From an uncultured virus (IMG/VR IMGVR_UViG_3300025723_000025) (lineage: Duplodnaviria; Heunggongvirae; Uroviricota; Caudoviricetes), in the IMG/VR virus record IMGVR_UViG_3300025723_000025: DNA of 64,000 bases, one strand, 5' to 3'. Position numbers and translations under genes: made by a program. The notes below the pieces were generated by a model. The model ran no database searches. It worked only from the letters and a program-made list of their open reading frames with translations, and was not told the DNA's origin. This document shows, one piece after another, positions 30,187-51,336 of the stretch. Position 1 is the stretch's first letter. Each line of letters starts with the position of its first letter.

Positions 30187-30831
30187 ATGACGACACCGAC
30201 ACCTTCTTGGGTAATGACCTATGACAGCCTGACATCGACTGTTCTTCAGTATTTGGAGAGGTCTGATCAGGCTACCATTGATGCTATCCCTACTTTTATC
30301 ACTTTGGCTGAATTTGAGATTGCCCAAGAGATTAAAACCTTGGGCCAATTGCAGGTTGCAGAGTCAACTTTGACAGCAGGTAATCCAGTAGTCGCCAAGC
30401 CTGCTCGCTGGCGCAAAACTACATCGATGAACTATATCGATGCGGCTGGCGTAAGGCACCCTATTTTCGTTCGTAAGTATGAGTACTTGACCAATTTTTG
30501 GCCCAACAATACCGAAACAGCGGCTCCTCAGTTCTATGCAGATACTGATTGGGATCACTGGTATTTGGCTCCTACACCTGATCAAAATTATGCTTTTGAA
30601 GTGCTTTACTATGAGCGCATTCAACCATTGAGCTCGACCAATCAAACCAATTGGTTAACTCAGAATGCACCGACTGCAATGTTGTTTGGCACGCTATTGC
30701 AGGCAATGCCGTTCCTTAAAAACGACCAACGCCAAATTTTTCAACAAAAGTACACCGAAGCAGTCCAGTCTCTGAAAACAGAAGATGTGGCCCGAGTTGG
30801 TGATCGTCAAGCCGTTGCCGTGGATAGCTAA
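30187..30831 (+). CDS. Putative tail adaptor protein
   Basis: IPTFITLAE, LAPTPD..Y, NWLTQNAP..LFGTL pattern. Confidence 0.65.
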   Translation: MTTPTPSWVMTYDSLTSTVLQYLERSDQATIDAIPTFITLAEFEIAQEIKTLGQLQVAESTLTAGNPVVAKPARWRKTTSMNYIDAAGVRHPIFVRKYEYLTNFWPNNTETAAPQFYADTDWDHWYLAPTPDQNYAFEVLYYERIQPLSSTNQTNWLTQNAPTAMLFGTLLQAMPFLKNDQRQIFQQKYTEAVQSLKTEDVARVGDRQAVAVDS

Positions 30832-30833
30832 AA

Positions 30834-32054
30834 ATGACAAGTTACGTTTCCCCATATACAGGACAAACAATTTCTCCAAGTCAAGTTGGCTATGAGAGTT
30901 TATCCATCACCGCCGATACCATTTTGCAATGGCCTGTTAATGGCAATAGTGCAGATGTAGTCGCAAACATTATTGAGGTATCTGCATCTAGCGATGGCCT
31001 TAGCTTAATCATGCCTCCGGCAACAGAGGTGTCTGACGGTCAATCCGTATTGATCAGAAACATTGGCACGCATACAGTCAATATTAAGAATTCAGGTCTT
31101 GGAGCGATCACTACAGTTGCTCCCGGTATTGCTATTTACATTTACTTGACTGACAACACAACCGTCAACGGCACATGGAGCAACGTCACTTTTGGTGCCG
31201 GAACATCATCTTCTGATGCCGCCACATTGGCTGGTTATGGATTGACAGCTATCGGAGCGACTTTAAATGAGTCAACTCCAGTATCTTTGTTCTCATCTAA
31301 TTACACTTTGACGCCTGCAGATCGTGCAGGATTGTATGCATGGACTGGTGGTGCTGGCACAGTGACTTTGCCATTGGCTCAAACTGTTGGTGCTGGCTGG
31401 TACATCGTTTTAAAGAATGATGGTTCAGGCATTTTGAATATTGCCCCACAAGGCACAAACATGATTGACGTGACCTTCTCGGCATGGCAATTGCAGATTC
31501 AAGAATCACTTGTATTAGCTACTGATGGATTGAATTGGTACACCTATGCTTACGGTCAATCCGCAGTATTTGCGTTTACTCAGTTGTACCTTGTTATTAC
31601 TGGCGGCACAACTACTTTGACTGATGCACAGGCATCAAACATTATTCAAGAGTATGCAGGCACCTTGACAAGTAATGCTGTCATCATTCTTCCGCCAACA
31701 GTTCAAATCTATTCATTTAGAAACTTGACAACTGGCCCATACACATTGACATTTAAGACGTCAGCAGTGGGCGGAACAACTATCGTATTACCTCAGAATC
31801 AAACGATTATTGCTATTTGCGATGGCACGAACGTCTATAACGCTCAGACTTCAACATCTAGCTTTATTAATGCATTGACTTTAGGTAATGGTTCAGCATC
31901 TGCACCATCATTGTCATTCCAAGGTGACGCATTAACTGGCTTATATTTAGCGGCATCTGGTCAACTTGGTTTTGCCATCGCAGGTGTTGCGGCAGGCCAA
32001 TTAACCGCAAACGGATTACTTTTGCCTGTTGGTATTAATGGCGGAGCGTTTTAA
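30834..32054 (+). CDS. Tail-associated structural protein
   Basis: GSASAPSLSF..DxxTGLY motif; C-terminal GGAF. Confidence 0.7.
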   Translation: MTSYVSPYTGQTISPSQVGYESLSITADTILQWPVNGNSADVVANIIEVSASSDGLSLIMPPATEVSDGQSVLIRNIGTHTVNIKNSGLGAITTVAPGIAIYIYLTDNTTVNGTWSNVTFGAGTSSSDAATLAGYGLTAIGATLNESTPVSLFSSNYTLTPADRAGLYAWTGGAGTVTLPLAQTVGAGWYIVLKNDGSGILNIAPQGTNMIDVTFSAWQLQIQESLVLATDGLNWYTYAYGQSAVFAFTQLYLVITGGTTTLTDAQASNIIQEYAGTLTSNAVIILPPTVQIYSFRNLTTGPYTLTFKTSAVGGTTIVLPQNQTIIAICDGTNVYNAQTSTSSFINALTLGNGSASAPSLSFQGDALTGLYLAASGQLGFAIAGVAAGQLTANGLLLPVGINGGAF

Positions 32055-34342
32055 TGACTATCAAAGTCGCTGTCCTACAAGTTGGTGCAGGTATCCAACG
32101 GGATGGAACCGTATTTGCCGCACCAGCATATGTTGATGGTCAATGGGTTCGATTTCAGTACGGACGCCCACGCAAAATTGGAGGCTATAACGGGGCATTT
32201 TTAAATGCTCAAGGTATCAGTCGTGGCATGATTTTGCAGTCTCAAAATGGTGAGACTTGGGTCGTATCAGGATTTAGCGATGGCTTGCAACAGTGGACTA
32301 TTGATAACGATGACGCAGTAGGTACTGGCCCAACACCGATTACTCCTCTTGGAGCGGTAACTGGTGTGACCATTGTTACCCAAGGATCTGCCTATACCAA
32401 TGGCACATACACCAACGTCCCATTAGTCACAACTACTGGCACAGGCGCATTGGCAACTGTCGTAGTGTCAAGCAACTTGGTTTTCAGCGTAACGATTACT
32501 AATGGCGGAACAAATACCTATCCATTTAATGAGCCATTCACCATTGCAAATTCAAGCATTGGTGGAACTGGATCTGGATTTACTGGCTATATTTCTGCTG
32601 TCTCGAGCTATTACACAAGCGATGCAACATTGTGGCAATTTGATATCGGTTACGACCCATACGGTACAGGCCAAAATAATCTGATTGCCCATCCCGGTCA
32701 GAATTTGATTGACATTGACTCAACTGTCAATACAAGACCTTTGATTGGCCCATTCACAGGGAATACATTAAGCCCTGTGGGCGTTTTTACTGAGACGGCT
32801 AACCTGACATCAGGATCTAAGCTAATCACTTTTGCAAGCACTATTGCGGCGATTGGCGCAGGCATAACAGTAAGTGGTACAGGTATTCCAGCCAATACGA
32901 CTGTGACATCTTCCAATTTGGAGCAATATGGCCCAGTCGGAAGCGTTTCAATTAATACTGCTGGATCAGGCTATACCAACGGCACGCACACTGGCGTGTC
33001 AATTGTCGGCAACTATATCGGCTCAGGTGCGCAAGCAACTGTAGTCGTTACTGGCGGTGCCGTGACATCTGTCACCGTGACTGCTGGTGGCTCAAATTAT
33101 CTTTTTGCCGACCTTTATACATTAAGCGGTGGTGGTATTGGATCAGGAACAGGATTCCAAGGATCTATCTCAACCCTATCGACAATCACTGCCAATTTGT
33201 GGACTGCATTCCTAAGTAATGCGGCGACAACTTCAGGCTCTGAAACTCTGACCTTTGACAACAACATCGATGTTTCAGGTGGTGTTGTCATGTTGTTCCC
33301 ATATCTTTTTGTTTATGGAAACTACGGATTAATTCAAAACTGTGCCGCAGGTGACTTTAATAACTGGACATCTGCTGACTCGAACTCCAATAACGTAGCA
33401 TCTACCAAAGTGGTCAAAGGCTTGCCTTTAAGGGGCGGTACAACGTCTCCAGCAGGTTTATTTTGGACTTTGGACTCAGTGGTACGGGTGACCTATGCTC
33501 CGCAGACTGTGGGCACTTCTACGCTTTACTGGAAGTACGACCTCATCACTCAACAGTCATCTATCCTATCTAGCTCATGCGTCATCGAATATGACGGTAT
33601 TTTCTACTGGGTCGGTGTGGATCGCTTCTTGATGTACAACGGTGTTGTGCAAGAAGTTTCAAATACTCAAAACCTCAACTGGTTCTTTGACAACGTCAAT
33701 ACTGATCAACGTCAAAAAGTATGGGTTTCAAAGATTCCACGTTGGGGTGAAATTTGGTGGTTCTATCCTCGTGGCGATGCTACCGAGTGTACTGATGCGA
33801 TTATCTTTAACGTGCGTGAAAAGTGTTGGTATGACGCAGGCTCTGCCGAAGGTGCCGCTCGTTCTGCAGGTACATTCTCTGAAGTATTTAAAAAGCCTAT
33901 TTGGGCTGGCAATCAAGTCAATATTGCAGACGGATACACTCTGTGGGTGCATGAACAGGGAACTGATGAGGTATTCCTTAGAAACGTCAATGCTATTCCA
34001 TCGTATTTCGAGACAAACGTCTTGGGTCAAAGCGTTGGATTAGTGGGTAATGCTCAACAGCCGGGCGACAATAATTGGACACGTGTAGAAAGAATAGAGC
34101 CGGACTTCCAGCAAGTTGGCGACATGACAGTCACCATCACTGGTAAGGGTTATGCCGACGATACTGATCAGGTATCAAAACCATATACCTTTAGTCCGAC
34201 TACACTTAAAATAGACATGAAAGAACAGCGTCGTGAGATGCGAATCAGATTCTCAAGCAATACGCAAAACGGCACTTACTTCATGGGTCGAGTAGTATTA
34301 AGCGTAGAAGCTGGAGATGTTCGTGGTACCGGGAATCCGTAA
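32054..34342 (+). CDS. Tail nozzle/stabilisation protein with inserted beta domains
   Basis: WVRFQYGRPRKIGG, FYWVGVDRFLMYNG, EIWWFYP motifs; position before ejection genes. Confidence 0.65.
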   Translation: MTIKVAVLQVGAGIQRDGTVFAAPAYVDGQWVRFQYGRPRKIGGYNGAFLNAQGISRGMILQSQNGETWVVSGFSDGLQQWTIDNDDAVGTGPTPITPLGAVTGVTIVTQGSAYTNGTYTNVPLVTTTGTGALATVVVSSNLVFSVTITNGGTNTYPFNEPFTIANSSIGGTGSGFTGYISAVSSYYTSDATLWQFDIGYDPYGTGQNNLIAHPGQNLIDIDSTVNTRPLIGPFTGNTLSPVGVFTETANLTSGSKLITFASTIAAIGAGITVSGTGIPANTTVTSSNLEQYGPVGSVSINTAGSGYTNGTHTGVSIVGNYIGSGAQATVVVTGGAVTSVTVTAGGSNYLFADLYTLSGGGIGSGTGFQGSISTLSTITANLWTAFLSNAATTSGSETLTFDNNIDVSGGVVMLFPYLFVYGNYGLIQNCAAGDFNNWTSADSNSNNVASTKVVKGLPLRGGTTSPAGLFWTLDSVVRVTYAPQTVGTSTLYWKYDLITQQSSILSSSCVIEYDGIFYWVGVDRFLMYNGVVQEVSNTQNLNWFFDNVNTDQRQKVWVSKIPRWGEIWWFYPRGDATECTDAIIFNVREKCWYDAGSAEGAARSAGTFSEVFKKPIWAGNQVNIADGYTLWVHEQGTDEVFLRNVNAIPSYFETNVLGQSVGLVGNAQQPGDNNWTRVERIEPDFQQVGDMTVTITGKGYADDTDQVSKPYTFSPTTLKIDMKEQRREMRIRFSSNTQNGTYFMGRVVLSVEAGDVRGTGNP

Positions 34343-34578
34343 TGATTAGTTACGATCCCCGTGGGATGACTTGGGATCAGTACTGCAAACTGATGGCTGA
34401 GTTATTTGCCCCCAATCAATTGGGGTATGTGGACGAAAAAGACTGGAGAACTTGGGTGGACGGACTCAATGGAATCGGATATTTTGTGCAATCAGGGGTG
34501 CCTGACGCCCGTGGTTTTGAAAACTGGCAAGAGTGGGCGACACAGATGGTCAACATCATGTCGATAAGCCCACAATGA
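34342..34578 (+). CDS. Trp-rich hypothetical protein
   Basis: TAATG and ATGA coupling. Confidence 0.75.
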   Translation: MISYDPRGMTWDQYCKLMAELFAPNQLGYVDEKDWRTWVDGLNGIGYFVQSGVPDARGFENWQEWATQMVNIMSISPQ

Positions 34579-34856
34579 ACTTCCTAGACTTATTTAATGC
34601 AGTTGCAAGAGTGGCTCGACCAGCTCATCACGATTTTGTATCAATTGACACTATGGATCTGCGATTCGTGGATTCATGTTTTGACAGTTTGGACATGATC
34701 ATGATTGGCATGTTTATGGCGATGATCTACGATATTCCTGATGAGATCGCCAAGGAGATGAATCCTACGACCATGCAAGAAATGTATGATCAGATCCAAC
34801 AGCATAAGCGTCGTGATCCTGAATCATTGGAATGGGCTTTGGAGCAAATTCAATGA
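34575..34856 (+). CDS. Acyl carrier protein-like protein
   Basis: 93 aa, acidic; FDSLDMI phosphopantetheine-site motif, then YDIPDE..TTMQEMYD helix pattern. Confidence 0.72.
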   Translation: MNFLDLFNAVARVARPAHHDFVSIDTMDLRFVDSCFDSLDMIMIGMFMAMIYDIPDEIAKEMNPTTMQEMYDQIQQHKRRDPESLEWALEQIQ

Positions 34857-35953
34857 TCTACTTGACCGACTACAGAACAGCATCAACTACTCATGTCGAG
34901 TTAATTGAGAATCTTAGTTACCCTCAAAAGGTCAATTGGTTCCCTGAAACCTACAACAAAGCCAAATTGGGAATGATCTATCCGCCCCATAAACTGGCTG
35001 AAAAAGTCCTTGATCCGCAATTAATCACAAAAATTCGTGAAAAACCTGCGAAGACGGCTTTTATTTTGGCGGCTGGCAATGGTCACCTTGCTGGAATCAA
35101 CCCACGCAAGATCCCTGAAAATGACCTCAATTACGCCTATAAATTCCTGCCTTTTACTCTGACTCAGGTTTACGCCGGAAGAACAGCTCAGGCATTCGGT
35201 GAGATTGAATACATCTCAACTGACGCCACGGCCTGCGCCAGCAGTCTAAAAACCATGATGGATGTGCAGAGCCTGATTAATTACTATGGCTTTGATCGGG
35301 TAATTGTTTTGTCCTTTGAGGACGCTGTATCGAACTCGGTACTGGAATTCTTCGGGGAAGCGCAGGCAAGTCTCAGTTTAAAAGACGAAATGAAGGGCAT
35401 CACGCCATCAGCCTTTGATGAGGTTAATGGAGGATTTCACGTAGGTCAAGGTGCAGTTCTCGCAATCTTTGAAAGCGAGCGTATTGCCGTTGATCCTATG
35501 GCTCAATTGATGGGTGCCTATACCGCAAGTGAAAACCATACAAATGCCATTGGGCAAAAGGAAGATGGCGAAGGATATCAAAAAGCGATCAATGGAGCCC
35601 TAGCCATTAGCAAAATTGACCCAACTCAAATTAAAATAGTCAAAACGCATGGAACTGGCACAAAGTCTAACAATGTGGCAGAAAAGTTCGCTCTTGAGAG
35701 TATTTTTAATGATTTTGTAGCCACATCTTACAAACCAAAGATAGGGCACACGATGGGAGCGAGCGGCTTGCTAGAAACATGCCTTTTGCTGGATGATTTG
35801 AACTATGGCGTAGTGCCTAAAATTTTGAACAGAACGGCTAGTGATTCACGCTACCTGTCTGAAGATGCACTTAGTCCCGACGGGATGATTTTGAGTGTGG
35901 CTTCAGGAATGGGGAATGTTTATTCTGCCGCTGTGCTTTCAACGGAGTTATAA
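34853..35953 (+). CDS. Beta-ketoacyl-ACP synthase (FabB/FabF-like)
   Basis: Cys-His-His triad motifs TACASS, KTHGTGT, KPKIGHTMGASG; GFHVGQGA; C-terminal SGMG. Confidence 0.9.
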   Translation: MIYLTDYRTASTTHVELIENLSYPQKVNWFPETYNKAKLGMIYPPHKLAEKVLDPQLITKIREKPAKTAFILAAGNGHLAGINPRKIPENDLNYAYKFLPFTLTQVYAGRTAQAFGEIEYISTDATACASSLKTMMDVQSLINYYGFDRVIVLSFEDAVSNSVLEFFGEAQASLSLKDEMKGITPSAFDEVNGGFHVGQGAVLAIFESERIAVDPMAQLMGAYTASENHTNAIGQKEDGEGYQKAINGALAISKIDPTQIKIVKTHGTGTKSNNVAEKFALESIFNDFVATSYKPKIGHTMGASGLLETCLLLDDLNYGVVPKILNRTASDSRYLSEDALSPDGMILSVASGMGNVYSAAVLSTEL

Positions 35954-36385
35954 ATGATTGTTGATTCTAAACAGCGTAAATTAAACATTGGGCAGATAGT
36001 CATGGGCTATTTGGAGAGTACTCCTCAAAAAATGCCATTAAAAGTGATGCTACCAGCAGTTATTGCTGAGTTGTCAAACAAAAATGTAAAAACAAAACAG
36101 TTTGGCAATACGCTGTTTGAAGTCATTCCCGGAAAAGATGATGCCGCTTATTTCAAAGCATTTAATGCCGATACTGGGGCTAACTTTGTCGACAATGGAA
36201 AACTATTTGTAGTCTATGCACGTCGAGTTTTGGGATTAAAAAATTTAGTGACTCAATTTGAAGATCCAGCCATTTTGCATATTTTTAAAATTATCTCAAT
36301 GAATCCTCCAATGCCGGGCATGGGATACAAAACTCAACAACTCAAGTCAGGCGAGACTAGAGTCATTTTAAATTTAGGAGCCTGA
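35954..36385 (+). CDS. Hypothetical protein, possible degenerate GNAT-fold acyltransferase
   Basis: Starts right after the KS stop; size, secondary-structure pattern and position resemble T7 gp13-type genes (inference). Confidence 0.55.
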   Translation: MIVDSKQRKLNIGQIVMGYLESTPQKMPLKVMLPAVIAELSNKNVKTKQFGNTLFEVIPGKDDAAYFKAFNADTGANFVDNGKLFVVYARRVLGLKNLVTQFEDPAILHIFKIISMNPPMPGMGYKTQQLKSGETRVILNLGA

Positions 36386-36386
36386 T

Positions 36387-38366
36387 ATGGGTGGAGTAGC
36401 TTCAGCAGTTTCAGATGCATTTTGTTCGGTAGCTTCTGCAGTCAGTGATGCAGTTTGTACTGTTGTTAGTGATGTAGGTTCTGTTGTTTGTAGCGTTATT
36501 CAAAACCCTACAACTGCGATTGCAGATATAGCCGCAGTCGCAACTGGCAATCCTGAATTAATCCCGTTGATTAACGGAACAATTACCTATGCAACCACTG
36601 GTTGTGCCACAAAAGCTTTAGAGGGCGCCGCAATATCTGCAGTTACTCAAGGCGTAGGTGCAATGGGTTGCTTTGGAGGTTTCTGCGGTGCAGGCGAAGG
36701 TTGCGTTGGTGCAAGTGTTTGCGTAAGCAGTGCTCCTTCATGCTTTAACGGTGCTCAGTGCTTTGGATGCGGATCAGTATCCAATGGCTGGTACTGCTCT
36801 ACACCTACTGCTAGTGTTTGCGCCCCTACAGGTGGTGTTTGCACGGCTTCTGCAGGTGCTCAAGTATGTGCTCCAACAGATACTGGAGGACTGTCATCTA
36901 CTGGTGGCGTATGCACTCCATGTGCTGGAGCTTTACCATCAACGACTTCATGCGTAGCTACTGGCACTTGTTTGCCTGAATCTACACCTGTTGCTGATAC
37001 ATGTGCCGCACAAACTCAATGCTTGGCATCAGATAACGCCACAACAAATCCTTGCATCTCCAATGAAACATGCGTAGCAAATCAAGAATGTGCAACGATG
37101 AAAGAATTCTGCACTGCATGCAATGCTTGTGTTTCTTGCGCTGATTCATGCTTATCTTCTTGCAGTTGTGCAGGATGCTGTTCATGCGCATGTTGCTCAT
37201 GCTGTGCATGTGGTTGTTGTTCTTCCAACCCACATTTAAAGCTTCCTAAAATCAAAGGTGCTAAAAAAGCAGGCCATAAAAAAGTTAAAACTGCAGGTCT
37301 TGGCAAGCTTAAAAACATTTCCAGTGGTGCTACACCATCTGGTCTGAGTGGATCTTCTACTGCCGCCGCTGGTGCTGGTGCTAGTGCCTTGAGCACGCTT
37401 GGCGGTGGATCAGGTACGTCAAATCCAAGCCTTTGCACTGCCAAAGACGTTATCAAATACAGCCATGATGCAGGTGCTGACGTATTGACACCATTGCAAG
37501 AAGGCAAAATTGTTTGTTCCCCACTTCCTACTAACGCAACTTCATCTGGTATAACGCCACAAATGTTGCAGGCCGCAATGGGTAGCAATATCAGCGGTGC
37601 AGTGGTTGATCCAACAATTGTAGAAAATGCTCTTCAAACAGCACAGTCAGAAAACATCGCACCATCGACTACTTTTGCCGATGGTGGTTCTGCCAAGTGC
37701 CAAGATGACAGTTGCGGCATCTACCATCCAAAAGCTGGTTGCTTTAAGAACCCATTCTGTCAGGCAAAAATGACCCCTCAGTTTTCTAATACTGGGCCTG
37801 AGGTATTGCATGGCACGGGTAATCAGCATTCACAAAATACTGGATTGACTGCCCTTAAGCATATTCATTCATCCATCGGATCATCTATGGGTCTAGCGGC
37901 TGGTGGTTTGCCATCTAAGTATCACGAGGCGGCTCCTGAAGGGCATAACCCTGAATTTATTACTGGCGTGACTGGCTACTATGCTTGTGGCGGAGGTACA
38001 GGCCAATCTGACGATATTCCAGCGATGCTCCATGATGGCGACTATGTGATGGATGCTGAGACAGTATCTGCATTAGGAGACGGATCTAGCAAGGCTGGTA
38101 TGCATGTTTTAGAAGGTTTCCGTAAACAAGTGCCTCATAAAGACGGTGCTGTAGGAAACCCTGTCCCTGCCAAGATTGCTGATGGCGAGTACGTTTTCCC
38201 AGCGGCATTTGTCACAGCTCTTGGTAAAGGCGACAATAAGAAAGGTTCTGAGATTTTGGATGGATTGCGTGAGAAACTACGAGAGCATAAGCGAAATGCT
38301 TCCACGGACAAAATTCCTCCAAAAGCGAAGTCACCATTGGATTACATTAAAAAGAGTAAAGGCTAA
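36387..38366 (+). CDS. Cys-rich putative internal virion/ejection protein
   Basis: MGGVAS start; about 48 Cys by hand count; C-terminal GGGTGQSDDIPAMLHDGDYV and ADGEYV domains. Confidence 0.75.
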   Translation: MGGVASAVSDAFCSVASAVSDAVCTVVSDVGSVVCSVIQNPTTAIADIAAVATGNPELIPLINGTITYATTGCATKALEGAAISAVTQGVGAMGCFGGFCGAGEGCVGASVCVSSAPSCFNGAQCFGCGSVSNGWYCSTPTASVCAPTGGVCTASAGAQVCAPTDTGGLSSTGGVCTPCAGALPSTTSCVATGTCLPESTPVADTCAAQTQCLASDNATTNPCISNETCVANQECATMKEFCTACNACVSCADSCLSSCSCAGCCSCACCSCCACGCCSSNPHLKLPKIKGAKKAGHKKVKTAGLGKLKNISSGATPSGLSGSSTAAAGAGASALSTLGGGSGTSNPSLCTAKDVIKYSHDAGADVLTPLQEGKIVCSPLPTNATSSGITPQMLQAAMGSNISGAVVDPTIVENALQTAQSENIAPSTTFADGGSAKCQDDSCGIYHPKAGCFKNPFCQAKMTPQFSNTGPEVLHGTGNQHSQNTGLTALKHIHSSIGSSMGLAAGGLPSKYHEAAPEGHNPEFITGVTGYYACGGGTGQSDDIPAMLHDGDYVMDAETVSALGDGSSKAGMHVLEGFRKQVPHKDGAVGNPVPAKIADGEYVFPAAFVTALGKGDNKKGSEILDGLREKLREHKRNASTDKIPPKAKSPLDYIKKSKG

Positions 38367-38368
38367 AA

Positions 38369-39745
38369 ATGGCTAATTTATTGCAATCATCATCGAATAA
38401 ATCGACGTGCGCACCGTCGTACTATACAAATTATCTAACCACCTTAGCGAATAAAGGTCTAGCCGCTCAGTGTGCGGCTCAGTACGTTGGTGCCCAGCCC
38501 TTACAGACTAAAGCGTTTTGCACTGCCAATGCTGAGGCTGGTAACTACGCTGGCAACTTTCAGACTGGTGCTGGCCTTGTAGGCTGTGCCGCTAATCAGA
38601 ATATTTCAGGTTCAGCTACTCCGTACCTGCAAGCGGCGACTACAGCGAGCCCTTTATGTGCCGCCAAGCCACTGATTTGCGAAACAGCAAAGATGAGCCT
38701 AGGACAAGTAGCTCAGTGCTACATGAGCCCTTATTTAAACAATGAGGTGCAAAACGTCTCAAACATTGGAATGCGTAATATCCAACAGAACTTGGCACCT
38801 CAGGCCGTTGCGGCAACTGTAGGATCAGGTCAGTTTGGATCTCAGCGTGGTGCGCAAGTATTAGGTCAGGTTGAAAACAACGCCATGACCTGCCTGAACA
38901 ACACCATTGCCAATATGGAAAACGCAGGATACACAACTGCTATGTGCGCCGCTAAAGCCAAAGAGAGTGCTTTGGGTGCATTGGCAAATACCACTTCTGC
39001 CGCTCAACAAGCTCAGAACCAAGTTCAACTTGGAGCTGGTACAGAGGCCGCTACATCCGCTACTCAACAAGCCAACGCCCTTCAACAGGCTGGCCTTGGT
39101 ATGGGTACGCTGGGTACAGAAGGCTCGAACGTCAAGTTGGCATGTATCAATGCATTGGCTACCCTTGGTGGTCAACAGCAGACTATCGCTCAGAACAAGC
39201 AATGCTATCCATTGACTACATTGGCAAAGACTGCAGGCATTCTGTCGGGTGCCAATATACCAATGTCCACCAAGCAGACTTTGTGCATGTCTCCATTGTC
39301 AGCAATTGGTGCCGCTGGATCTACAGCTCTTGGATTGCTTACACCTTGCAAAACTACAGGCAAAACATTGTTGTCTAGCCTCAAGTGCGGTATTGCAACA
39401 ACATTTGGTGGTTGTGAGGCCGCAAAAGCGGCGGCGGCTAAAGCGGCGGCGGCTAAGGCATCTGCTGAAGCGGCGGCAAACGCAAAACAATTGGCGGCTG
39501 ATAAGGCGGCGGCGGCAGGTTGCGCATCATGCTCAAGTTGCGTAGCTTGCAACAGTTGTGCAAGTTGTGTGGCTTGCAATGGTTGCTATGGTTGTTATGG
39601 TTGCTCTACTTGCCTAGCAGGTTGCTATTGCTGTGTCGGTTGCTTTGCGGCTAAAGGCGGATTGATTACTGCAAAGGCCTTGGGCGGCACTGTTGGTTGC
39701 GCATCCACAATTTATTTCGGCGGATTGCCTTTTAGGAGAAAATAA
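38369..39745 (+). CDS. Cys-rich putative ejection/DNA-transfer protein
   Basis: YMSPY, GQFGSQR and Ala/Gln-rich helical pattern; about 31 Cys including a (Cxx)n run. Confidence 0.75.
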   Translation: MANLLQSSSNKSTCAPSYYTNYLTTLANKGLAAQCAAQYVGAQPLQTKAFCTANAEAGNYAGNFQTGAGLVGCAANQNISGSATPYLQAATTASPLCAAKPLICETAKMSLGQVAQCYMSPYLNNEVQNVSNIGMRNIQQNLAPQAVAATVGSGQFGSQRGAQVLGQVENNAMTCLNNTIANMENAGYTTAMCAAKAKESALGALANTTSAAQQAQNQVQLGAGTEAATSATQQANALQQAGLGMGTLGTEGSNVKLACINALATLGGQQQTIAQNKQCYPLTTLAKTAGILSGANIPMSTKQTLCMSPLSAIGAAGSTALGLLTPCKTTGKTLLSSLKCGIATTFGGCEAAKAAAAKAAAAKASAEAAANAKQLAADKAAAAGCASCSSCVACNSCASCVACNGCYGCYGCSTCLAGCYCCVGCFAAKGGLITAKALGGTVGCASTIYFGGLPFRRK

Positions 39746-41694
39746 TGGCTGACAAAGAGAATTACGGTGGTCTAGCCAACGCTGGAGACTTATCTAAGGT
39801 CAACACCTATGGTCTTGACGATGAACGCTTACAAGAGCTCCATCAGGCCCAGCAGGACGCTTATGACGCCCTTCAGCAACGCTATTCACAGCCTAACTGG
39901 TTCAAGGTAGCGGCAGGCTTCGCAAAGCCTCAATTAGGCGGTTTTGTGGCTTCTTTGGGTAGTGCCGCTGATGCATTGGGCGACACCGTAGAGTCACAGC
40001 GTGCCCAGCAGTTGCCTATGGCTGAGATGAAGATGCGCATGGCCCAATCCAATTTGCTATTGGGTCAGAACAAAAAAGCTTCAGACATGGTTGCAGAGCG
40101 TCGCAACAAAGGTCTGCCAATTACTCCTGAGTTCGCCGCTGAAGTGGCTCGTATCGCTCCTGATTCAGCCGTTGCTAAAGCGTTGACTACTGAGATCGGA
40201 ACCCAGCAAAAAGAACAAGAGCTGGCAGGTCAACGTATTGCAGTCGCAAGATCTATGGGTAAAGAGCCCAATCCTGCCGATATGGCTTTGCTTGAAAAAT
40301 CTACAGCTCCTACTAGCCCTGCTAATCCACCTGCACAAGCTACTGGAACGAATAAGATCATTGCTCAAGAAGCCAATTTGCCTTCAGCTCCTACTGGCAA
40401 AGAAGGTGCAGTGTCCAATGAAGACTTCTTGCATGCTACTCATGGTTTAGAAAACATTCCTCCCGGTCAAAAAGCGAAGACATCTTCAGCAATGGGCCCC
40501 GGAGGTATGCTCGATTCAACTCGTGCGAATCTTCAAAAGAAATACAACTTGCCTGAAGGTTACGGTACTGATCCTGCTGTCACAGCTCAATACGAAAATG
40601 CATTGCTTAAAGAAAATGCAGAGACTGTTCTCAAGCCAAACAAAATGGATGAGACAACTCTTAACCATCGTATGGCTTGGTGGTTCGGAAATGATGCGCC
40701 TAAGTTAACAAGCTCAGATCCATCATCAAAAATTGGAGAAGTTCTTAGTCCAGAAGTAATTAAAGCCAATGGCCTTGATCCTAATATGCGAGTTGGCAAA
40801 TTAGTTTCTCGTATCGAAGGCAATCTTTGGGATCAAGGCATCAACCCTAAACACATGGTTGGTGGTGCAAAAGCACAAGAAAATCCTGCAGAGTTGCCAT
40901 TAGATCCAGCGGATACTAAGCCTAATCAAAAGCTTGGTTTCGGTGATTGGGGCTTTGCTAACGTACCTGCGACTGCTACCTACAACGACTTTACTAAGAA
41001 GCAATATGAGAACCTTGAAGGTAAAGCTCAGAAGCGTCTTGACCTTGTTCAAGAGTTGGGAAGCCCTGAAGGTAACGTGCAAACTAATGCGGCAAAGAAC
41101 GTCAATGCATTTTTGAACTTTGCACAGGAAAGCCCTGAGAACAGAGCGGCGATTAAGCGTGTTGTCAACAACATGAATAAAAACCCTGCGATCGTCAATG
41201 CACTTTTGGCAAGTGGCGAAGCTGGACTGCACGCTAACGTAGGTGAGTTCAGCGGCTCTATCGGTTTGCCTGTCAGAAAATTCCTAGAAAACTTCAATGA
41301 TCCAAAAGATCAGAAGGCCGCACAGATGGTTGCATTGGCTATCGATAATGCCAACTTCGTAAACGCCAAGATTAAAGGTATGTCTCCGACTGCCAATATT
41401 CCTGCGGCTGAAGCGAACCTGATGACTGCTGGCACATTGTCTCGAGACATCAACTACTCAACATTGATGAATAGCATGAGCCACTTGGAAAATAGCTTGG
41501 AGATGCAAAAGAACTTGTTCAATGGTTACCAAAGCTTGACAAATTCTTATGGCGACAAGTTAAGCCCATTGGCCCCTACTCATCAGATTGTGAACAGCAA
41601 ATGGTGGAATGGCGTAGTCAAGCATCACCATGACAAAGCAGACACTTATTACAAGCAATACAACAAAGCTATGGGCTACAGCCCAAAAGAATGA
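39745..41694 (+). CDS. Internal virion protein with lytic transglycosylase-like domain
   Basis: HGLEN...AKTSSAMGPGGMLDST...AWWFG resembles SLT motifs. Confidence 0.6.
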   Translation: MADKENYGGLANAGDLSKVNTYGLDDERLQELHQAQQDAYDALQQRYSQPNWFKVAAGFAKPQLGGFVASLGSAADALGDTVESQRAQQLPMAEMKMRMAQSNLLLGQNKKASDMVAERRNKGLPITPEFAAEVARIAPDSAVAKALTTEIGTQQKEQELAGQRIAVARSMGKEPNPADMALLEKSTAPTSPANPPAQATGTNKIIAQEANLPSAPTGKEGAVSNEDFLHATHGLENIPPGQKAKTSSAMGPGGMLDSTRANLQKKYNLPEGYGTDPAVTAQYENALLKENAETVLKPNKMDETTLNHRMAWWFGNDAPKLTSSDPSSKIGEVLSPEVIKANGLDPNMRVGKLVSRIEGNLWDQGINPKHMVGGAKAQENPAELPLDPADTKPNQKLGFGDWGFANVPATATYNDFTKKQYENLEGKAQKRLDLVQELGSPEGNVQTNAAKNVNAFLNFAQESPENRAAIKRVVNNMNKNPAIVNALLASGEAGLHANVGEFSGSIGLPVRKFLENFNDPKDQKAAQMVALAIDNANFVNAKIKGMSPTANIPAAEANLMTAGTLSRDINYSTLMNSMSHLENSLEMQKNLFNGYQSLTNSYGDKLSPLAPTHQIVNSKWWNGVVKHHHDKADTYYKQYNKAMGYSPKE

Positions 41695-41702
41695 GGTGAA
41701 TT

Positions 41703-42971
41703 ATGGGTACAGAACGTAATTTAGGAGCACTACTTGACGATGAAGAGCAAGTGTCCGCTTCTGCTAAAACTGAAAAGTCTAATGATGCACCTCAAGTAAA
41801 AATTGAATCAGATGCAAAAGACAATTCAGGCGAAAGCAACGATCGTAGCAACTTGCTTGGAATTGCAGAAGAAGAAGAGCCAATCAAGCGTGATGAGTCA
41901 CATCTGACAGCCGCTGATATTGTGGCTGGGACTGCTCCTGCGATTGCAAAGATTGATTCATTGCCTCCAAGAGAAAATAAAGTTCAAGCAAACCTGAGAG
42001 ACGTTAATCAGAAGCTCACAGGGGCTCAAGATATTCATTCTGAAAACATGAGAATTCTTGAGGAAGCTAAGAAGCATCATGACTTTTTATCAAGTGAGGC
42101 GGCTGTTGAGGCTCACATGCCTGAGCACCTAAGAGGCAATGTCACTGTTGAAGCGGCACCTGAGCCTACATTGACTCGTGTACCTGAAGGTGGAACTGCT
42201 GTAGGCAACTACGCTGAGAAATTTGTTCCTCCTCATGAAGCGATGAATGCGACAAGCATGTCGCAAGTTCAAAAGGATTTGATTCCTAGGAATGCGGCAT
42301 TAGCGGCTGAAACTCAACGTCTTGCTCCCGGTACTATCCTGACTAAGGAAAGTCCACTGGCTCTGACTCCAGAGGCCCAAAAGGCCAAACTGGCTCAGAT
42401 GAAGGCTGAACAGTTGATTGCACAAGAAAGAGCTGAGGCACATGCCAAGGCAGTTGAAGAGGCCAAGAGAGAAGCCCATGCAAAGCTTGAGCCTCATCGC
42501 ACACAAGCCGCTGAAGATTTAGCTCGAGCTGAAGCAGAAGCCAATAAGTCAAAAATTGCTTTGAAAGACTTAGCTACAAGACAAGAGCGTTTGAGCTCTA
42601 ACTTGGCTGATATGACAGGCAGAACTGGTAGCAAGATTGGCAACATGGTTCGCTATGGTGGTGACTTGCTTGGAAAACTATCTGTTCCTGCCGCTTTGGC
42701 TTCAGTGCCTTATGAATATCAACAGGCTGTTGAATCAGGCAAGAAGGCTTGGGAATCAGGCAATATGAAAGATTGGGGCGAGACTGCTAAACATACTGCT
42801 GGCGTAGCTAGTGGTGCATTAGCCGCCGCACCTTATCTAGCCGCCGCAGGATTGTTGGCACCTGAAGTCGGTGCCGGACTTGCTACTACTGGTGCTATCG
42901 GTGGGTTAAGCATTCTAGCGACTGAAGCTCCCCAGTTGTATCGGAAGTACATTCAGGGTAGAGGTGAGTAA
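41703..42971 (+). CDS. Putative internal virion protein
   Basis: Last late gene; coiled coil plus hydrophobic C-terminus. Confidence 0.6.
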   Translation: MGTERNLGALLDDEEQVSASAKTEKSNDAPQVKIESDAKDNSGESNDRSNLLGIAEEEEPIKRDESHLTAADIVAGTAPAIAKIDSLPPRENKVQANLRDVNQKLTGAQDIHSENMRILEEAKKHHDFLSSEAAVEAHMPEHLRGNVTVEAAPEPTLTRVPEGGTAVGNYAEKFVPPHEAMNATSMSQVQKDLIPRNAALAAETQRLAPGTILTKESPLALTPEAQKAKLAQMKAEQLIAQERAEAHAKAVEEAKREAHAKLEPHRTQAAEDLARAEAEANKSKIALKDLATRQERLSSNLADMTGRTGSKIGNMVRYGGDLLGKLSVPAALASVPYEYQQAVESGKKAWESGNMKDWGETAKHTAGVASGALAAAPYLAAAGLLAPEVGAGLATTGAIGGLSILATEAPQLYRKYIQGRGE

Positions 42972-43336: not shown

Positions 43337-43547
43337 TGTTTTCTCCAGTAAAGTCTAATTCTTGATTAATAACACGAGCGTGCTCGACCTTGTATCCTTT
43401 TTCAAGCAACTCAACCAAATCCATCTGGGTTGCAACTTCTGCTTTGAATTGATTATTAGCAATAAATGCAATTGCTGATTGACGGCTAGGAGAATTCACT
43501 AAGTGAACTCCCTTTGGGCCAGTGACTACATAGATACGTTCTTTCAT
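43326..43547 (-). CDS. Hypothetical protein
   Basis: Overlap coupling. Confidence 0.75.
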   Translation of the reverse strand: MKERIYVVTGPKGVHLVNSPSRQSAIAFIANNQFKAEVATQMDLVELLEKGYKVEHARVINQELDFTGENNVE

Positions 43548-43834
43548 TTAATTAACTCCCAATCTTCTCCAAATAGATCAAGCTGTGATGGAACCCATCC
43601 AGCCATGTACGTTTTTTGAGCTGTCCACATGTCAATGTGCGGAACAATCTCCATTTCTTTTACGCCAAAGTCTTGTAGGTTTTCTGCAGTAATCGGGCTG
43701 TGTGGTCTAAGGTTTTCAGGCAGTACAGAATAGCCACCAGCTAAAACCAAAAACATATTGCTACCGTTCCAACCTGCACGTCTTACTTTTTGACCGTGTT
43801 TGATCAATTCCAATGCTGTTCCAAAGTTCATCAC
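43544..43834 (-). CDS. DUF2829 / Tad2-like protein
   Basis: MNFGTALELIKHGQKVRRAGWNG...WVPSQLDLFGEDW signature. Confidence 0.8.
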   Translation of the reverse strand: MMNFGTALELIKHGQKVRRAGWNGSNMFLVLAGGYSVLPENLRPHSPITAENLQDFGVKEMEIVPHIDMWTAQKTYMAGWVPSQLDLFGEDWELIK

Positions 43835-50706: not shown

Positions 50707-51336
50707 ATGGACAAGCTGGAAGAGAATCATTACTTTGTTACGCCGTTGTACGCAGTCAAGAAGACGGAATTTTTAGAGTCCGTCAAAGCTGTATCCAATC
50801 GCTACTTGGCGCAAAGTAAAGGATGTAAAGGAAAGAACAAAGTCACTACGATGACCGCCAATTATTCCGGCGAAGAGGAGATTTCTAATTTCACTCAGTA
50901 CGTCTCGCAAACAGCATGGAACATTCTCAAGGCTCAAGGATTCAAGATGGAGCCGCTAGTGACCTATTTCACTGAGATGTGGACGCAAGAGCACAATCAC
51001 ATGTCATCCATGGATCAGCACGTTCATGGCCTTGGAGCGCAGATCAGTGCGTTTTTCTTTTTGGATGTGCCTAAGAACGGTTGCAAGCTAGTCATTCACG
51101 ATCCACGTCCCGGAAAAGTCATCTTGAATCTACCTATGGCGAGCGATGACAAGATCAGCCAAGCTTCAACTCAGATCGTATTCACACCTGAAGCCGGAAC
51201 CATCATCTTCGTACCAGCATGGTTGCCGCATTCATTTACACGCAACGTAGGTAAAGAGCCTACTCGCTTTGTTCACATGAACCTAGCAGTTGCAGTGGCT
51301 CCATCTAAAGATGAGCCTGAAGTGGAGATCATATGA
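50707..51336 (+). CDS. Putative 2OG-Fe(II) oxygenase (TIGR02466-like)
   Basis: HVH, IHDPRP, FVPAWLPH, R..HMN. Confidence 0.8.
   Translation: MDKLEENHYFVTPLYAVKKTEFLESVKAVSNRYLAQSKGCKGKNKVTTMTANYSGEEEISNFTQYVSQTAWNILKAQGFKMEPLVTYFTEMWTQEHNHMSSMDQHVHGLGAQISAFFFLDVPKNGCKLVIHDPRPGKVILNLPMASDDKISQASTQIVFTPEAGTIIFVPAWLPHSFTRNVGKEPTRFVHMNLAVAVAPSKDEPEVEII

What the first reader, a model, noticed from the sequence alone, without database searches (positions are those of the whole stretch)
36387..39745. Two putative ejection proteins with extreme, patterned cysteine enrichment
Seen (hand count): about 48 Cys in 659 aa, with about 41 in the first ~280 residues ending CSCAGCCSCACCSCCACGCC, and about 31 Cys in 458 aa, including a Cys-every-third run CASCSSCVACNSCASCVACNGCYGCYGCSTC. 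The first three Cys are at positions 13, 24 and 35, an 11-residue period that places them on one helix face. I found no Cys in the 943-aa fibre or the adjacent 649-aa protein, so this is not genome-wide composition. Established: periodic Cys runs occur in metallothioneins and in RiPP-like modification targets. Inference: these are sites for S-acylation or other modification by the adjacent cassette, a metal-binding cargo, or a redox switch that cross-links in the oxidising periplasm.
Basis: partly seen in the sequence, partly recalled or inferred. Interest (0 to 1): 0.75.

Follow-up and report, generated by a model that had tools for sequence, protein, structure and literature searches.

The report
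Cysteine-string phage ejection proteins
Two neighbouring genes of an uncultured freshwater phage encode probable DNA-ejection proteins with long runs of cysteine, a selected trait that recurs in their large family, evolves in both proteins together, and has no link to the lipid-synthesis genes next door.

Summary
Protein A (36387-38366) has 48 Cys in 659 aa and protein B (38369-39745) has 31 in 458, against 0.55% Cys in 53 other ORFs.

By gene order, A and B are the first two of four internal-virion/ejection-type proteins of a podophage. Its nearest cultured relatives are Caulobacter phages RW/GB2A.

Both families are large and uncultured. Cys content is close to all-or-none:
- In 58 of 84 related loci, A and B both have 0 Cys.
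- In 22 loci both have Cys, up to 148 in 665 aa.
- The third protein has 0 Cys in 40 of 40 loci.

Cys residues are conserved better than their neighbours, with synonymous codon changes. Well-supported branches force at least five gains or losses. A and B change together (6 independent pairs, p about 0.03).

The Cys strings are followed by a polybasic stretch.

The ACP/KS cassette is uncoupled from Cys content (Fisher p=0.74). It tracks a Val/acid-repeat N-terminal module instead. The acylation-by-cassette reading therefore fails its own test.

Best mechanism (inferred, about 0.4): thiol cross-linking by disulfide and/or metal-thiolate bridges that locks A and B together. Rivals are a metallothionein-like metal fold and a membrane anchor. 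I found no published precedent.

The parts
36387..38366 (+). Protein A, 659 aa, 48 Cys: a fusion of a variable N-terminal half with a highly conserved C-terminal domain
   Evidence: Searching residues 440-659 finds 1192 proteins at E<=1e-3. A profile search finds 12,165 representatives at E<=1e-3.
36387..36521 (+). N-terminal Val/Ser/Ala-rich repeat module (aa 1-45) holding Cys 13, 24 and 35. It is the Cys-substituted version of the Val/acid-repeat N-terminus that follows the cassette in relatives.
   Evidence: A 33-nt tandem repeat lies at 36396-36458. The N-termini of the proteins downstream of p143 are listed.
36603..37220 (+). Cys-rich block of A (aa 73-278, 38 Cys), ending in a string with 12 Cys in 20 residues
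   Evidence: Against L002 over aa 60-300 there are 34 aligned Cys-Cys pairs, 6 with synonymous codon changes, and 0 Cys lost.
37221..37322 (+). Polybasic stretch directly after the Cys string (10 K/R in the next 40 aa)
   Evidence: row P0001 (P0001 is identical to window A). 29 of 48 Cys-rich homologues have >=8 K/R there, against a background of 3.2 per 40 aa. A polybasic window is present in 24 of 43 Cys-rich and 2 of 77 Cys-poor homologues.
37698..37760 (+). Small four-Cys motif (Cys 438, 443, 452, 458) in the middle region. It is also kept in the Cys-poor module-swap relative P0002.
37899..38363 (+). Conserved C-terminal domain of A (aa 505-659), about 60-90% identical across the top hits. 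It holds two beta-alpha-alpha repeats.
   Evidence: The AF2 model has pLDDT >90 over fragment residues 150-240. No known fold matched: best Foldseek E 2.7, best VIA Z 3.6.
38369..39745 (+). Protein B, 458 aa, 31 Cys
   Evidence: Searching residues 1-345 finds 1350 proteins at E<=1e-3.
38369..39403 (+). Helical core of B (aa 1-345) with 14 scattered Cys at positions that are polar (Q/T/D/N/E) in Cys-free homologues
   Evidence: The AF2 model is all-helical, with a helix at 158-294 and mean pLDDT 63.
39521..39643 (+). C-terminal Cys string of B (aa 385-425, 15 Cys; the first 11, at 385-415, stand at period 3)
   Evidence: Its length and pattern vary between relatives. It is disordered in the model.
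39644..39742 (+). Conserved C-terminal tail motif of B, with Cys 444 present in 81% of 151 aligned homologues
39745..41694 (+). Protein C, 649 aa, 0 Cys: the third gene of the module
   Evidence: The C homologue has 0 Cys in 40 of 40 loci where it was found.
41703..42971 (+). Protein D, 422 aa, 0 Cys: the fourth gene, with a hydrophobic C-terminus. The matching protein in two relatives carries an SLT domain.
   Evidence: SLT is found in L001 (2e-16) and in GB2A (1e-17), and none in the window's C or D.
34575..36385 (+). Neighbouring cassette, which is not part of the Cys feature. It comprises an ACP-like gene (34575-34856; the longest ORF starts at 34533), a FabF-like ketosynthase (34832-35953) and the orphan 143-aa protein p143 (35954-36385).
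   Evidence: Pfam ketoacyl-synt_C 8.6e-19. NCBIfam fabF scores 103 bits against a cut-off of 494, and ACP gives E 0.05. p143 has no family or PDB-sequence match.
30187..34342 (+). Upstream tail genes that set the context: adaptor (30187-30831), 406-aa tail protein (30834-32054) and 762-aa nozzle-like protein (32054-34342)
   Evidence: All three are syntenic in the related loci.

Best explanation
A and B are the first two proteins of a four-gene internal-virion (ejection) module of an uncultured podophage. The phage is probably from fresh water and its host is possibly a betaproteobacterium.

Their Cys-rich parts are lineage-specific 'cysteine strings'. They have replaced otherwise Cys-free, low-complexity segments at two sites:
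- the variable N-terminal half of A, always just before a polybasic stretch;
- the tail of B, just before its conserved C-terminal motif.
In addition, Cys replaces polar residues along the helices of B.

The strings are not substrates of the neighbouring ACP/KS cassette.

Proposed mechanism (inferred, not shown): the thiols act as a cross-linking device. The proteins are made reduced, very likely metal-loaded, in the reducing host cytoplasm. Once in an oxidising place, A and B become bridged within and between subunits by disulfides and/or metal-thiolate links. That place could be the released virion or the host envelope after ejection. The result is a covalently locked internal body or outer part of the ejection conduit. 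Proteins C and D must travel further inward and stay strictly Cys-free.

What is shown: the anatomy, the selection on Cys, the joint evolution of A and B, and the independence from the cassette. What is inferred: the virion location, the oxidation state and the cross-links.
For: (1) Selection on Cys.
- Between the window and L002, the A block (aa 60-300) has 34 aligned Cys-Cys pairs, 6 with TGT/TGC changes. No Cys is lost and 1 is gained. Non-Cys identity there is 0.87.
- Between L004 and L005 there are 108 Cys-Cys pairs, 32 of them synonymous. Cys conservation is 0.90 against 0.75 for other residues.

(2) Cys content is close to all-or-none.
- Of 84 unique loci with complete A and B, both have 0 Cys in 58 and both have Cys in 22.
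- A alone has Cys (1-4 residues) in 4 loci, and B alone in 0. Spearman correlation is 0.93.
- At the window's background, the chance that C plus D (1071 aa) hold no Cys is 0.003. Avoiding Cys altogether fits proteins exposed to an oxidising compartment; that link rests on established knowledge of exported bacterial proteins and is recalled.

(3) A and B change together. On a tree of the nozzle protein (62 loci), 6 independent pairs differ in A-Cys. B goes the same way in 5.6 on average and the opposite way in 0 (median p 0.031).

(4) C has 0 Cys in 40 of 40 loci. D has 0 in the four examples examined.

(5) In B, Cys sit at positions that are Q/T/D/N/E in other homologues, on predicted long helices. 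That is, they occupy presumably exposed sites. Core counts show no even-number bias (84 even including 24 zeros, 67 odd). This fits links between subunits better than paired bonds within one chain.

(6) Repeated origin or loss.
- Cys-rich versus Cys-poor A needs 16 changes on the C-domain tree (123 rows).
- Starred branches force at least 5, and shuffled labels average 37.
- Cys strings occur on several unrelated N-terminal architectures.

(7) String periodicity is not conserved: it is 3, 4 or 5 residues or irregular. This points to thiol density, not a particular fold, as the selected property.
Against: - No experiment or structure shows that A or B is in the virion, ejected, oxidised or cross-linked.
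- No thiol oxidoreductase (thioredoxin, Dsb or Erv type) was found. I scanned 92 window ORFs with Pfam (13, 79) and read 59 of the 72 annotated features of MW202545.1.
- A heavily disulfide-linked mass should be hard to thread through a tail channel.
- The tight coupling of Cys strings to a polybasic stretch (24 of 43 Cys-rich versus 2 of 77 Cys-poor) is not predicted by cross-linking alone. It fits a membrane or DNA contact.
- The test of A and B changing together rests on only 6 pairs.
- Loci were sampled by homology searches. One search was keyed on the ketosynthase, so proportions are not population estimates.
Confidence: 0.4

Rival explanations
1. Metallothionein-like metal fold. The strings wrap Zn, Cu or Fe in thiolate clusters. 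This gives a compact, core-less domain that can be stored in the capsid and unravels to a thread when the metal is lost, which would suit a protein that must pass through the tail. Metal binding, not disulfide formation, would be the selected property.
For: - Cys spacing is dominated by CC (419), CxC (238), CxxC (357) and CxxxC (191).
- Block composition is C 17%, T 13%, G 11%, A 10% and S 9%, with W and H about 0.1% each and F and Y about 1% each.
- In the variable part, Cys rises mainly at the expense of Ala, Asp/Glu and Asn/Gln. In B, Cys replaces D, E and Q, so hard ligands are swapped for soft ones.
- Such Cys density would bind soft metals in any cytoplasm (inference from metallothionein chemistry).
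Against: - No Pfam metallothionein family matched at E<=10 on 8 Cys-rich sequences. HMMER's composition filters make that test weak.
- Blocks reach 270 residues inside 600-1000-aa proteins.
- Pro-rich C-x-P-x-C tracts in some members are unlike metallothioneins (recalled).
- Single Cys scattered on the helices of B are not cluster-like.
- This reading does not explain why most of the family, and C and D everywhere, hold no Cys at all.
- A few hundred thiols per virion are too few to matter as a metal cargo for the cell (my estimate, assuming about ten copies).
Confidence: 0.22
2. Membrane anchor. The Cys string is hydrophobic in itself, or becomes S-acylated by host lipid donors. Together with the adjacent polybasic stretch it tethers the ejected protein to anionic host membranes, as palmitoylated Cys clusters next to basic residues do in eukaryotic and viral membrane proteins.
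For: - The Cys string is followed by an alternating basic/hydrophobic stretch in 29 of 48 Cys-rich homologues. The polybasic stretch is almost confined to Cys-rich members (24 of 43 versus 2 of 77).
- Some short members start directly with a Cys/Trp/Ile/Val-rich string (P0015, P0036, P0067).
- Mean hydropathy of the variable part is +0.11 in Cys-rich and -0.18 in Cys-poor members.
- Ejection proteins must enter membranes (review PMC8954989, passages read).
Against: - No protein S-acyltransferase is known in bacteria (recalled), and no DHHC-type family was seen among 92 window ORFs.
- It does not explain the polar-to-Cys changes along the helices of B, or A and B changing together.
- Free thiols exposed in the envelope would oxidise.
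Confidence: 0.18
3. One reading: the Cys are sites of S-acylation or another modification carried out by the adjacent ACP/ketosynthase cassette.
For: - The cassette lies directly upstream of A.
- By sequence the ketosynthase keeps the Cys-His-His triad motifs. I judged this by eye against recalled FabF motifs.
Against: - Cys-rich A occurs without the cassette in 9 of 12 covered Cys-rich loci. Twenty-three cassette loci have A with 0 Cys. Fisher p = 0.74, and independent pairs give p = 1.
- The cassette instead tracks a Val/acid-repeat N-terminal module: cassette present with module present 34, both absent 61, and mismatches 5 and 3.
Confidence: 0.03
4. No specific function. The Cys runs are a tolerated drift in composition, by repeat expansion, within a disordered low-complexity linker.
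For: - The region is hypervariable and replaceable. P0002 is 92% identical to A over the searched C-terminal 220 residues, yet its N-terminal 340 aa are a Cys-free G/S/T/A-rich module.
- Tandem repeats and length changes are present.
- The strings are predicted to be disordered.
Against: - Cys is conserved better than its neighbours, with synonymous codon turnover.
- The changes from Q/D/N/T to Cys in B need two or more base changes (read from the codon table).
- A and B change together.
- The string sits in a fixed place before the polybasic stretch.
- The all-or-none distribution does not look like drift.
Confidence: 0.08

Closest known systems
Podovirus ejection (internal virion) proteins, T7 gp14/gp15/gp16 type
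   Same: - The genes lie directly after the tail adaptor and nozzle genes as a run of large, fast-diverging proteins.
- The last gene carries an SLT transglycosylase in relatives.
- B is a long helical hairpin. Among many generic helical matches it aligns to two T7 chains: one from the tail complex and one from virions remodelled at infection (7ey7_A, Z 8.9, 101 residues, rmsd 4.1; 8e4g_a, Z 8.2, 125 residues).
- The review PMC8954989 (passages) says such homologues are mostly assigned by size and synteny.
   Different: - No sequence or significant fold similarity was found.
- There are four proteins, not three.
- The review's main text does not contain the word cysteine (0 occurrences). Cys strings are not a described feature of this class.
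Caulobacter phages RW, RLK, KcrB and GB2A (proposed genus Riverwalkvirus, PMC11053796, passages read)
   Same: These are the nearest cultured relatives. The nozzle is 44% identical. The C-domain of A is 47.5% identical over residues 522-654. B matches over residues 4-191. The gene order is the same and the last protein carries SLT.
   Different: Their A (580 aa, annotated as a tape measure protein) and B (333 aa) homologues have 0 Cys. They have no ACP/KS cassette in the stretch examined.
Metallothioneins
   Same: Cys density, CC/CxC/CxxC spacing, and near absence of aromatic residues and His in the blocks.
   Different: No profile match. The blocks are embedded in large multi-domain virion proteins and are up to about 270 residues long. 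Some have Pro-rich tracts. Metal binding is untested.
High-sulfur keratin-associated proteins, and cysteine-rich envelope proteins that cross-link infectious particles outside the cell (chlamydial outer-membrane complex, papillomavirus capsid maturation; all recalled, except that the abstract of PMC4128349 was seen in the listing)
   Same: Some relatives have CC-x-x-x pentad repeats (L004). The logic is also shared: an extracellular particle stabilised by disulfides that form only after it leaves the reducing cytoplasm.
   Different: There is no homology and no Pfam keratin match. Cross-linking here is a hypothesis.
Cysteine-string / palmitoylated Cys cluster next to a polybasic stretch (eukaryotic cysteine string protein, cytoplasmic tails of viral fusion proteins; recalled)
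   Same: Strings reach 17 Cys in 20 residues and adjoin a basic stretch. The depositors' automatic annotation of the MW202545.1 B homologue as a coronavirus S2 glycoprotein probably reflects this resemblance in composition (my inference).
   Different: The setting is bacterial, where no S-acyltransferase is known. Acylation is untested.

Membership tests
Podovirus ejection/internal virion proteins (T7 gp14-16-like) | Genes lie directly downstream of the tail adaptor/nozzle genes as a block of large proteins | tested here: met
   The order adaptor, tail, nozzle, [cassette], A, B, C, D holds in the window and in the syntenic loci.
Podovirus ejection/internal virion proteins (T7 gp14-16-like) | One member carries a lytic transglycosylase domain | tested here: inconclusive
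   SLT is found in the fourth protein of MW202545.1 (2.2e-16) and of GB2A (9.9e-18). None is found in the window's C or D at E<=0.1.
Podovirus ejection/internal virion proteins (T7 gp14-16-like) | Sequence or fold similarity to solved ejection proteins | tested here: inconclusive
   B aligns to T7 chains at Z 8.2-8.9, within the range of generic helical matches. No PDB sequence match was found. The C-domain of A matched nothing.
Podovirus ejection/internal virion proteins (T7 gp14-16-like) | Packaged in the capsid and released at infection | not testable with these tools
   No cultured Cys-rich member and no proteomics are available.
Metallothionein | High Cys content in CC/CxC/CxxC motifs with few aromatic residues or His | tested here: met
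   blocks are 17% Cys. Spacings 1-3 dominate. W and H are about 0.1% each and F and Y about 1% each.
Metallothionein | Match to a curated metallothionein profile | tested here: inconclusive
   No Pfam family matched at E<=10 for 8 Cys-rich sequences. Composition filters may hide such matches.
Metallothionein | Small stand-alone metal-binding protein or domain; metal-thiolate clusters | not testable with these tools
   The blocks are 40-270 residues inside 370-1000-aa proteins. Metal content is unknown.
Substrate of the adjacent ACP/KS cassette (RiPP-like or S-acylation target) | Cys richness co-occurs with the cassette across relatives | tested here: not met
   Counts are 3 Cys-rich with and 9 without the cassette, against 24 and 44 for the rest; Fisher p = 0.74. 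Independent pairs: 1.1 the same way, 0.9 the opposite way, 4.0 unchanged; p = 1.
Palmitoylated cysteine-string membrane anchor | Dense Cys string next to a polybasic stretch | tested here: met
   29 of 48 Cys-rich homologues have >=8 K/R in the 40 aa after the string. A polybasic window is present in 24 of 43 Cys-rich versus 2 of 77 Cys-poor.
Palmitoylated cysteine-string membrane anchor | A protein S-acyltransferase is available | tested here: not met
   No such Pfam family was found among 92 window ORFs. A host enzyme or non-enzymatic transfer cannot be excluded.
High-sulfur keratin-associated proteins | Match to the Pfam keratin high-sulfur families; CC-x-x-x pentad repeats | tested here: inconclusive
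   Pentad repeats are present in L004 but not in the window. No Pfam match was found.

The most novel reading that the evidence does not exclude
Some freshwater phages have turned two of their DNA-ejection proteins into giant cysteine strings, up to 22% Cys overall and 17 Cys in 20 residues. These would work as a redox- or metal-gated latch. The internal body becomes covalently cross-linked once the virion leaves the reducing cell, and it must be reduced, or stripped of metal, at the host envelope before the genome can be fired. The device arose or was lost at least five times and evolves jointly in both proteins. The rest of the family excludes Cys completely.
Probability: 0.25. Interest if true: 0.85.

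Novelty: new variant of a known kind. Interest (0 to 1): 0.66.

Why it matters
Proteins with more than 20% Cys are very rare in bacteria and phages. I found none described for phage virion or ejection proteins in five full-text searches or in the ejection-protein review.

The family is large: 12,165 representatives at 50% identity match the A profile. It switches between total Cys avoidance and extreme Cys enrichment, which makes it a natural experiment on how thiol chemistry is used, or avoided, during genome delivery.

If the strings are a redox or metal latch, they would add a new control point for phage stability in oxic water and for the triggering of ejection. They would also be a natural source of very dense thiol scaffolds.

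The work removes an attractive but wrong link to the ACP/KS cassette. It redirects the cassette question to the N-terminal Val/acid-repeat module.

Tried and rejected
**Family searches on A, B, C and D.** PHROGs gave only a weak 'tape measure' match to A residues 522-570 (E 1.8e-4). Pfam gave nothing at E<=0.01.

**Searches on the Cys-rich segments.** Pfam at E<=10 on 8 Cys-rich sequences gave one chance-level row. The ESM Atlas search on the Cys block scored 0.75 at best, which is uninformative. On p143 it scored 0.80 at best.

**Fold searches.**
- Model of B: Foldseek against the PDB gave E 0.034 at best (chemoreceptor coiled coils). The wide VIA search gave generic helical matches with Z up to 10.4.
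- Model of the C-domain of A: Foldseek E >= 2.7 and VIA Z up to 3.6.
- I do not read these as evidence of a new fold.

**PDB sequence searches.** C, D, the B profile and the p143 profile gave nothing below E 0.3.

**Phage-encoded thiol oxidoreductase.** None was found among 92 window ORFs or among 59 of the 72 annotated features of MW202545.1.

**SLT domain in the window's C or D.** Not found.

**Disulfide pairing in B.** Column co-occurrence showed nested clade blocks instead of one-to-one partners, and Cys counts showed no even-number bias.

**Near-identical DNA in the phage collection.** No megablast match.

**Own assembly.** It is not held. The nearest record, G001, is a 10-kb fragment with no match to B.

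**Tools not offered for this window.** The look-up of sequencing runs and complex prediction, so there is no read-level check and no test of A-B binding.

**Host.** A scan of genome contigs gave 12 contigs binned in MAGs. Seven are titled Betaproteobacteria, Burkholderiales, Burkholderiaceae or Limnohabitans. Binning of phage contigs is weak evidence, so I treat this as a lead only.

Full report
**Observation**

The two ORFs are as described. Protein A (36387-38366, +, 659 aa) has 48 Cys, 41 of them in the first 290 residues. The first three are at 13, 24 and 35, and the dense run lies at 259-278. Protein B (38369-39745, +, 458 aa) has 31 Cys, eleven of them at strict period 3 between 385 and 415.

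- The 943-aa, 649-aa and 422-aa neighbours have no Cys.
- Fifty-three other + strand ORFs of the window average 0.55% Cys (69 of 12,618 aa).
- At that rate the two counts have binomial probabilities of 3e-37 and 1e-23.
- Independent contigs carry the region at 100% identity (L003, L014). Others at 83-90% (L002) keep the same frames. An assembly or frame artefact is therefore unlikely.
- Reads could not be consulted.

Two of the three Cys behind the 11-residue period lie in a 33-nt tandem repeat. Relatives do not keep the period.

**What the genes are**

The window is a phage genome of about 55 kb. It encodes both terminase subunits, a portal, a capsid protein, a fibre, a tailspike and a lysozyme.

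A and B follow an adaptor (Pfam SU10_adaptor, 4e-26), a 406-aa tail protein and a 762-aa nozzle-like protein. They are followed by two more large proteins, C and D.

- The same order is found in GenBank MW202545.1.
- It is also found in all 12 IMG/VR loci retrieved with B.
- At lower identity it holds in Caulobacter phages RW, RLK, KcrB and GB2A. These are the proposed genus Riverwalkvirus (PMC11053796, passages).
- The fourth protein has an SLT transglycosylase domain in MW202545.1 and in GB2A, though not in the window.

A review of podovirus ejection proteins (PMC8954989, passages) states that such proteins are usually recognised by size and synteny. On that basis I call A-D an ejection (internal virion) module. 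This is an inference.

- No family, PDB sequence or significant fold match was obtained for A, B, C or D.
- B is predicted to be all-helical, with a 137-residue helix.
- Among many generic helical matches, B aligns to two T7 chains: one from the tail complex and one from virions remodelled at infection (Z 8.2-8.9).
- The last 110 residues or so of A fold confidently as two beta-alpha-alpha repeats with no known counterpart.

**The families**

- The C-terminal domain of A defines a large uncultured family. It has 1192 proteins at E<=1e-3 in the 90%-clustered collection. The profile finds 12,165 representatives at 50% identity.
- B has 1350 relatives.
- All names given by the sources are 'hypothetical'.
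- A scan of bacterial genome bins found 12 contigs. Seven are in bins titled Betaproteobacteria, Burkholderiales, Burkholderiaceae or Limnohabitans. This is a weak host lead.

**Cys content across the families**

- Among the 120 closest A homologues, Cys ranges from 0 to 139 per protein. Forty-three have 20 or more and 9 have 2 or fewer. Nearly all Cys lie outside the last 200 residues.
- Among the best 150 representatives at 50% identity, 66 have 0 Cys, 47 have 1-4, 24 have 5-19 and 13 have 20 or more.
- Extreme members have 148 Cys in 665 aa (L004), 141 in 860 (L101) and 139 in 849 (P0095). Strings reach 17 Cys in 20 residues.
- Among the 120 closest B homologues the median is 14 Cys, and 21 have 20 or more.

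Of 84 unique loci with complete A and B:
- both have 0 Cys in 58;
- both have Cys in 22;
- A alone has Cys (1-4 residues) in 4;
- B alone has Cys in none (Spearman 0.93);
- the C homologue has 0 Cys in 40 of the 40 loci where it was found.

Most of the family therefore excludes Cys altogether. For comparison, the chance of no Cys in the 1071 aa of C plus D at the window's background is 0.003. A minority enriches Cys massively, and only in A and B.

**Anatomy of the Cys-rich parts**

In A the block lies in the variable N-terminal half.
- It is built from C, T, G, A and S with almost no W or H. CC, CxC and CxxC spacings dominate.
- It ends in a dense string that is followed at once by a polybasic, often alternating basic/hydrophobic, stretch.
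- Twenty-nine of 48 Cys-rich homologues have at least 8 K/R in the next 40 residues, against a background of 3.2.
- A polybasic window occurs in 24 of 43 Cys-rich but only 2 of 77 Cys-poor homologues.

In B there is a C-terminal string just before a conserved tail motif. Further Cys are scattered along the helical core at positions that are Q, T, D, N or E in other homologues.
- They appear in nested clade blocks instead of one-to-one pairs.
- Core counts show no even-number bias: 84 even (24 of them zero) against 67 odd.

String periodicity differs between relatives (3, 4 or 5 residues, or none).

The N-terminal half of A is exchangeable. P0002 is 92% identical to A over the searched C-terminal 220 residues. 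Its first 340 residues are a Cys-free G/S/T/A-rich module.

**Is it selected?**

- Between the window and L002, the A block (aa 60-300) has 34 aligned Cys-Cys pairs, 6 with synonymous codon changes. No Cys is lost and one is gained. Other residues there are 87% identical.
- L004 against L005 gives 108 Cys-Cys pairs, 32 of them synonymous. Cys conservation is 0.90 against 0.75 for other residues.
- On a tree of the A C-domain (123 rows), Cys-rich versus Cys-poor needs 16 changes. Well-supported branches force at least 5, and shuffled labels average 37.
- On a tree of the nozzle protein (62 loci), 6 phylogenetically independent pairs differ in A-Cys. B goes the same way in 5.6 on average and never the other way (median p 0.031).

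These results argue against neutral drift. They point to a thiol-dependent role shared by A and B.

**The cassette**

Upstream lie three genes:
- an ACP-like gene;
- a divergent FabF-like ketosynthase (Pfam 8.6e-19; NCBIfam fabF 103 bits against a cut-off of 494);
- an orphan 143-aa protein, p143.

One hundred and seventeen viral contigs encode a relative of the ketosynthase, and 80 were examined. Across 80 unique loci in which the region upstream of A is covered:

| A Cys content | with cassette | without cassette |
|---|---|---|
| 20 or more | 3 | 9 |
| 1-19 | 1 | 13 |
| 0 | 23 | 31 |

Fisher p is 0.74, and independent pairs give p = 1. One of the searches was keyed on the ketosynthase, so the proportions are not population frequencies. 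All four combinations nevertheless exist.

The cassette instead tracks another feature. The protein immediately after p143 starts with Met-Gly/Ser, followed by Val/acid-rich repeats and a hydrophobic stretch. Counts are 34 loci with both cassette and module, 61 with neither, 5 with the cassette only and 3 with the module only. In the window this module is the N-terminus of A, with Cys in its repeats.

**Mechanism**

Nothing here measures chemistry, so this section is inference.

I favour thiol cross-linking of A and B by disulfides and/or metal-thiolate bridges. These would form once the proteins leave the reducing cytoplasm, either in the released virion or in the host envelope after ejection. 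Reasons:
- The family is otherwise strictly Cys-free, as expected for proteins exposed to an oxidising compartment (recalled general knowledge).
- A and B gain Cys together, while C and D never do.
- The Cys of B occupy polar helix positions without pairing parity.
- Thiol density, not a fixed pattern, is what is conserved.

I put this at about 0.4. The rivals are:
- a metallothionein-like metal fold that can be unravelled (0.22);
- a membrane anchor formed by the hydrophobic or acylated string plus the polybasic stretch (0.18), which best explains the coupling to the polybasic stretch;
- neutral drift (0.08);
- cassette-driven acylation (0.03).

These readings overlap. Metal loading in the cytoplasm is chemically almost unavoidable for such sequences.

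Points against my favoured reading:
- No phage thiol oxidoreductase was found.
- A cross-linked mass would be hard to thread through a tail.
- The test of A and B changing together has only six pairs.

**Novelty**

Five full-text searches found no description of Cys-rich phage ejection or internal virion proteins. The ejection-protein review does not mention cysteine. The library covers open-access papers and bioRxiv only.

I class the finding as a new variant of a known kind: ejection-type proteins carrying cysteine strings.

Noticed in passing
window 34533-36521; loci L014-L092, L099, L100, L102, L133, L135, L140, L156, L168: The ACP / FabF-like KS / p143 cassette is always followed by a protein that starts Met-Gly/Ser, then has Val/acid-rich repeats and a hydrophobic stretch. 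Counts are 34 loci with both, 61 with neither, 5 with the cassette only and 3 with the module only. The cassette may act on or with this N-terminal module, for example by lipidation, somewhat as acyl-ACP-dependent toxin-activating acyltransferases do (recalled analogy). p143 has conserved motifs but no family, PDB-sequence or Atlas match.
   Followed up: partly
window 1-9300 versus 54700-64000: The first and last 9 kb or so of the window are collinear but diverged copies, 70-93% nt identical at offsets of 54.5-55.0 kb. Each includes a 477-aa large terminase; by a gap-free position-by-position count the two are 59% identical in protein. The window therefore runs from one phage genome into a second, related one. 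This could be a tandem of two strains or an assembly through strain variants.
   Followed up: partly
window 43547-43834 (-): A 96-aa ORF matches Pfam Tad2-like (Thoeris anti-defence 2-like domain), E 1.6e-22.
   Followed up: no
window 39745-42971; related loci: Proteins C and D have 0 Cys in 1071 aa (P = 0.003 at the window's background). The C homologue has 0 Cys in 40 of 40 loci, and in 58 of 84 loci A and B also have none. This is strong Cys avoidance across an ejection-protein family.
   Followed up: yes
protein P0002 versus window 36387-38366: P0002 is 92% identical to A over the searched C-terminal 220 residues. Its N-terminal 340 residues are a wholly different, Cys-free G/S/T/A-rich module. 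This shows module swapping between close relatives.
   Followed up: partly
window 41703-42971 versus L001 12336-13568 and L093 12809-14974: The fourth protein of the module carries an SLT transglycosylase domain in MW202545.1 and in Caulobacter phage GB2A, but neither C nor D of the window has one.
   Followed up: partly
window 13118-13615 and 50707-51333: A GroES/Cpn10-like gene (Pfam E 6.9e-5) and a 2OG-Fe(II) oxygenase (4e-11) are present. Both are also annotated in MW202545.1.
   Followed up: no
loci L174-L185: Relatives of A lie on contigs binned into MAGs. Seven of 12 are titled Betaproteobacteria, Burkholderiales, Burkholderiaceae or Limnohabitans. L174 carries A with 88 Cys in 995 aa and B with 31 in 663. 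This is a weak host lead.
   Followed up: partly
L001 9610-10848 (MW202545.1): The depositors' automatic annotation calls the B homologue 'coronavirus S2 glycoprotein'. This is most likely a compositional match to its C-terminal Cys string and not homology (my inference).
   Followed up: no
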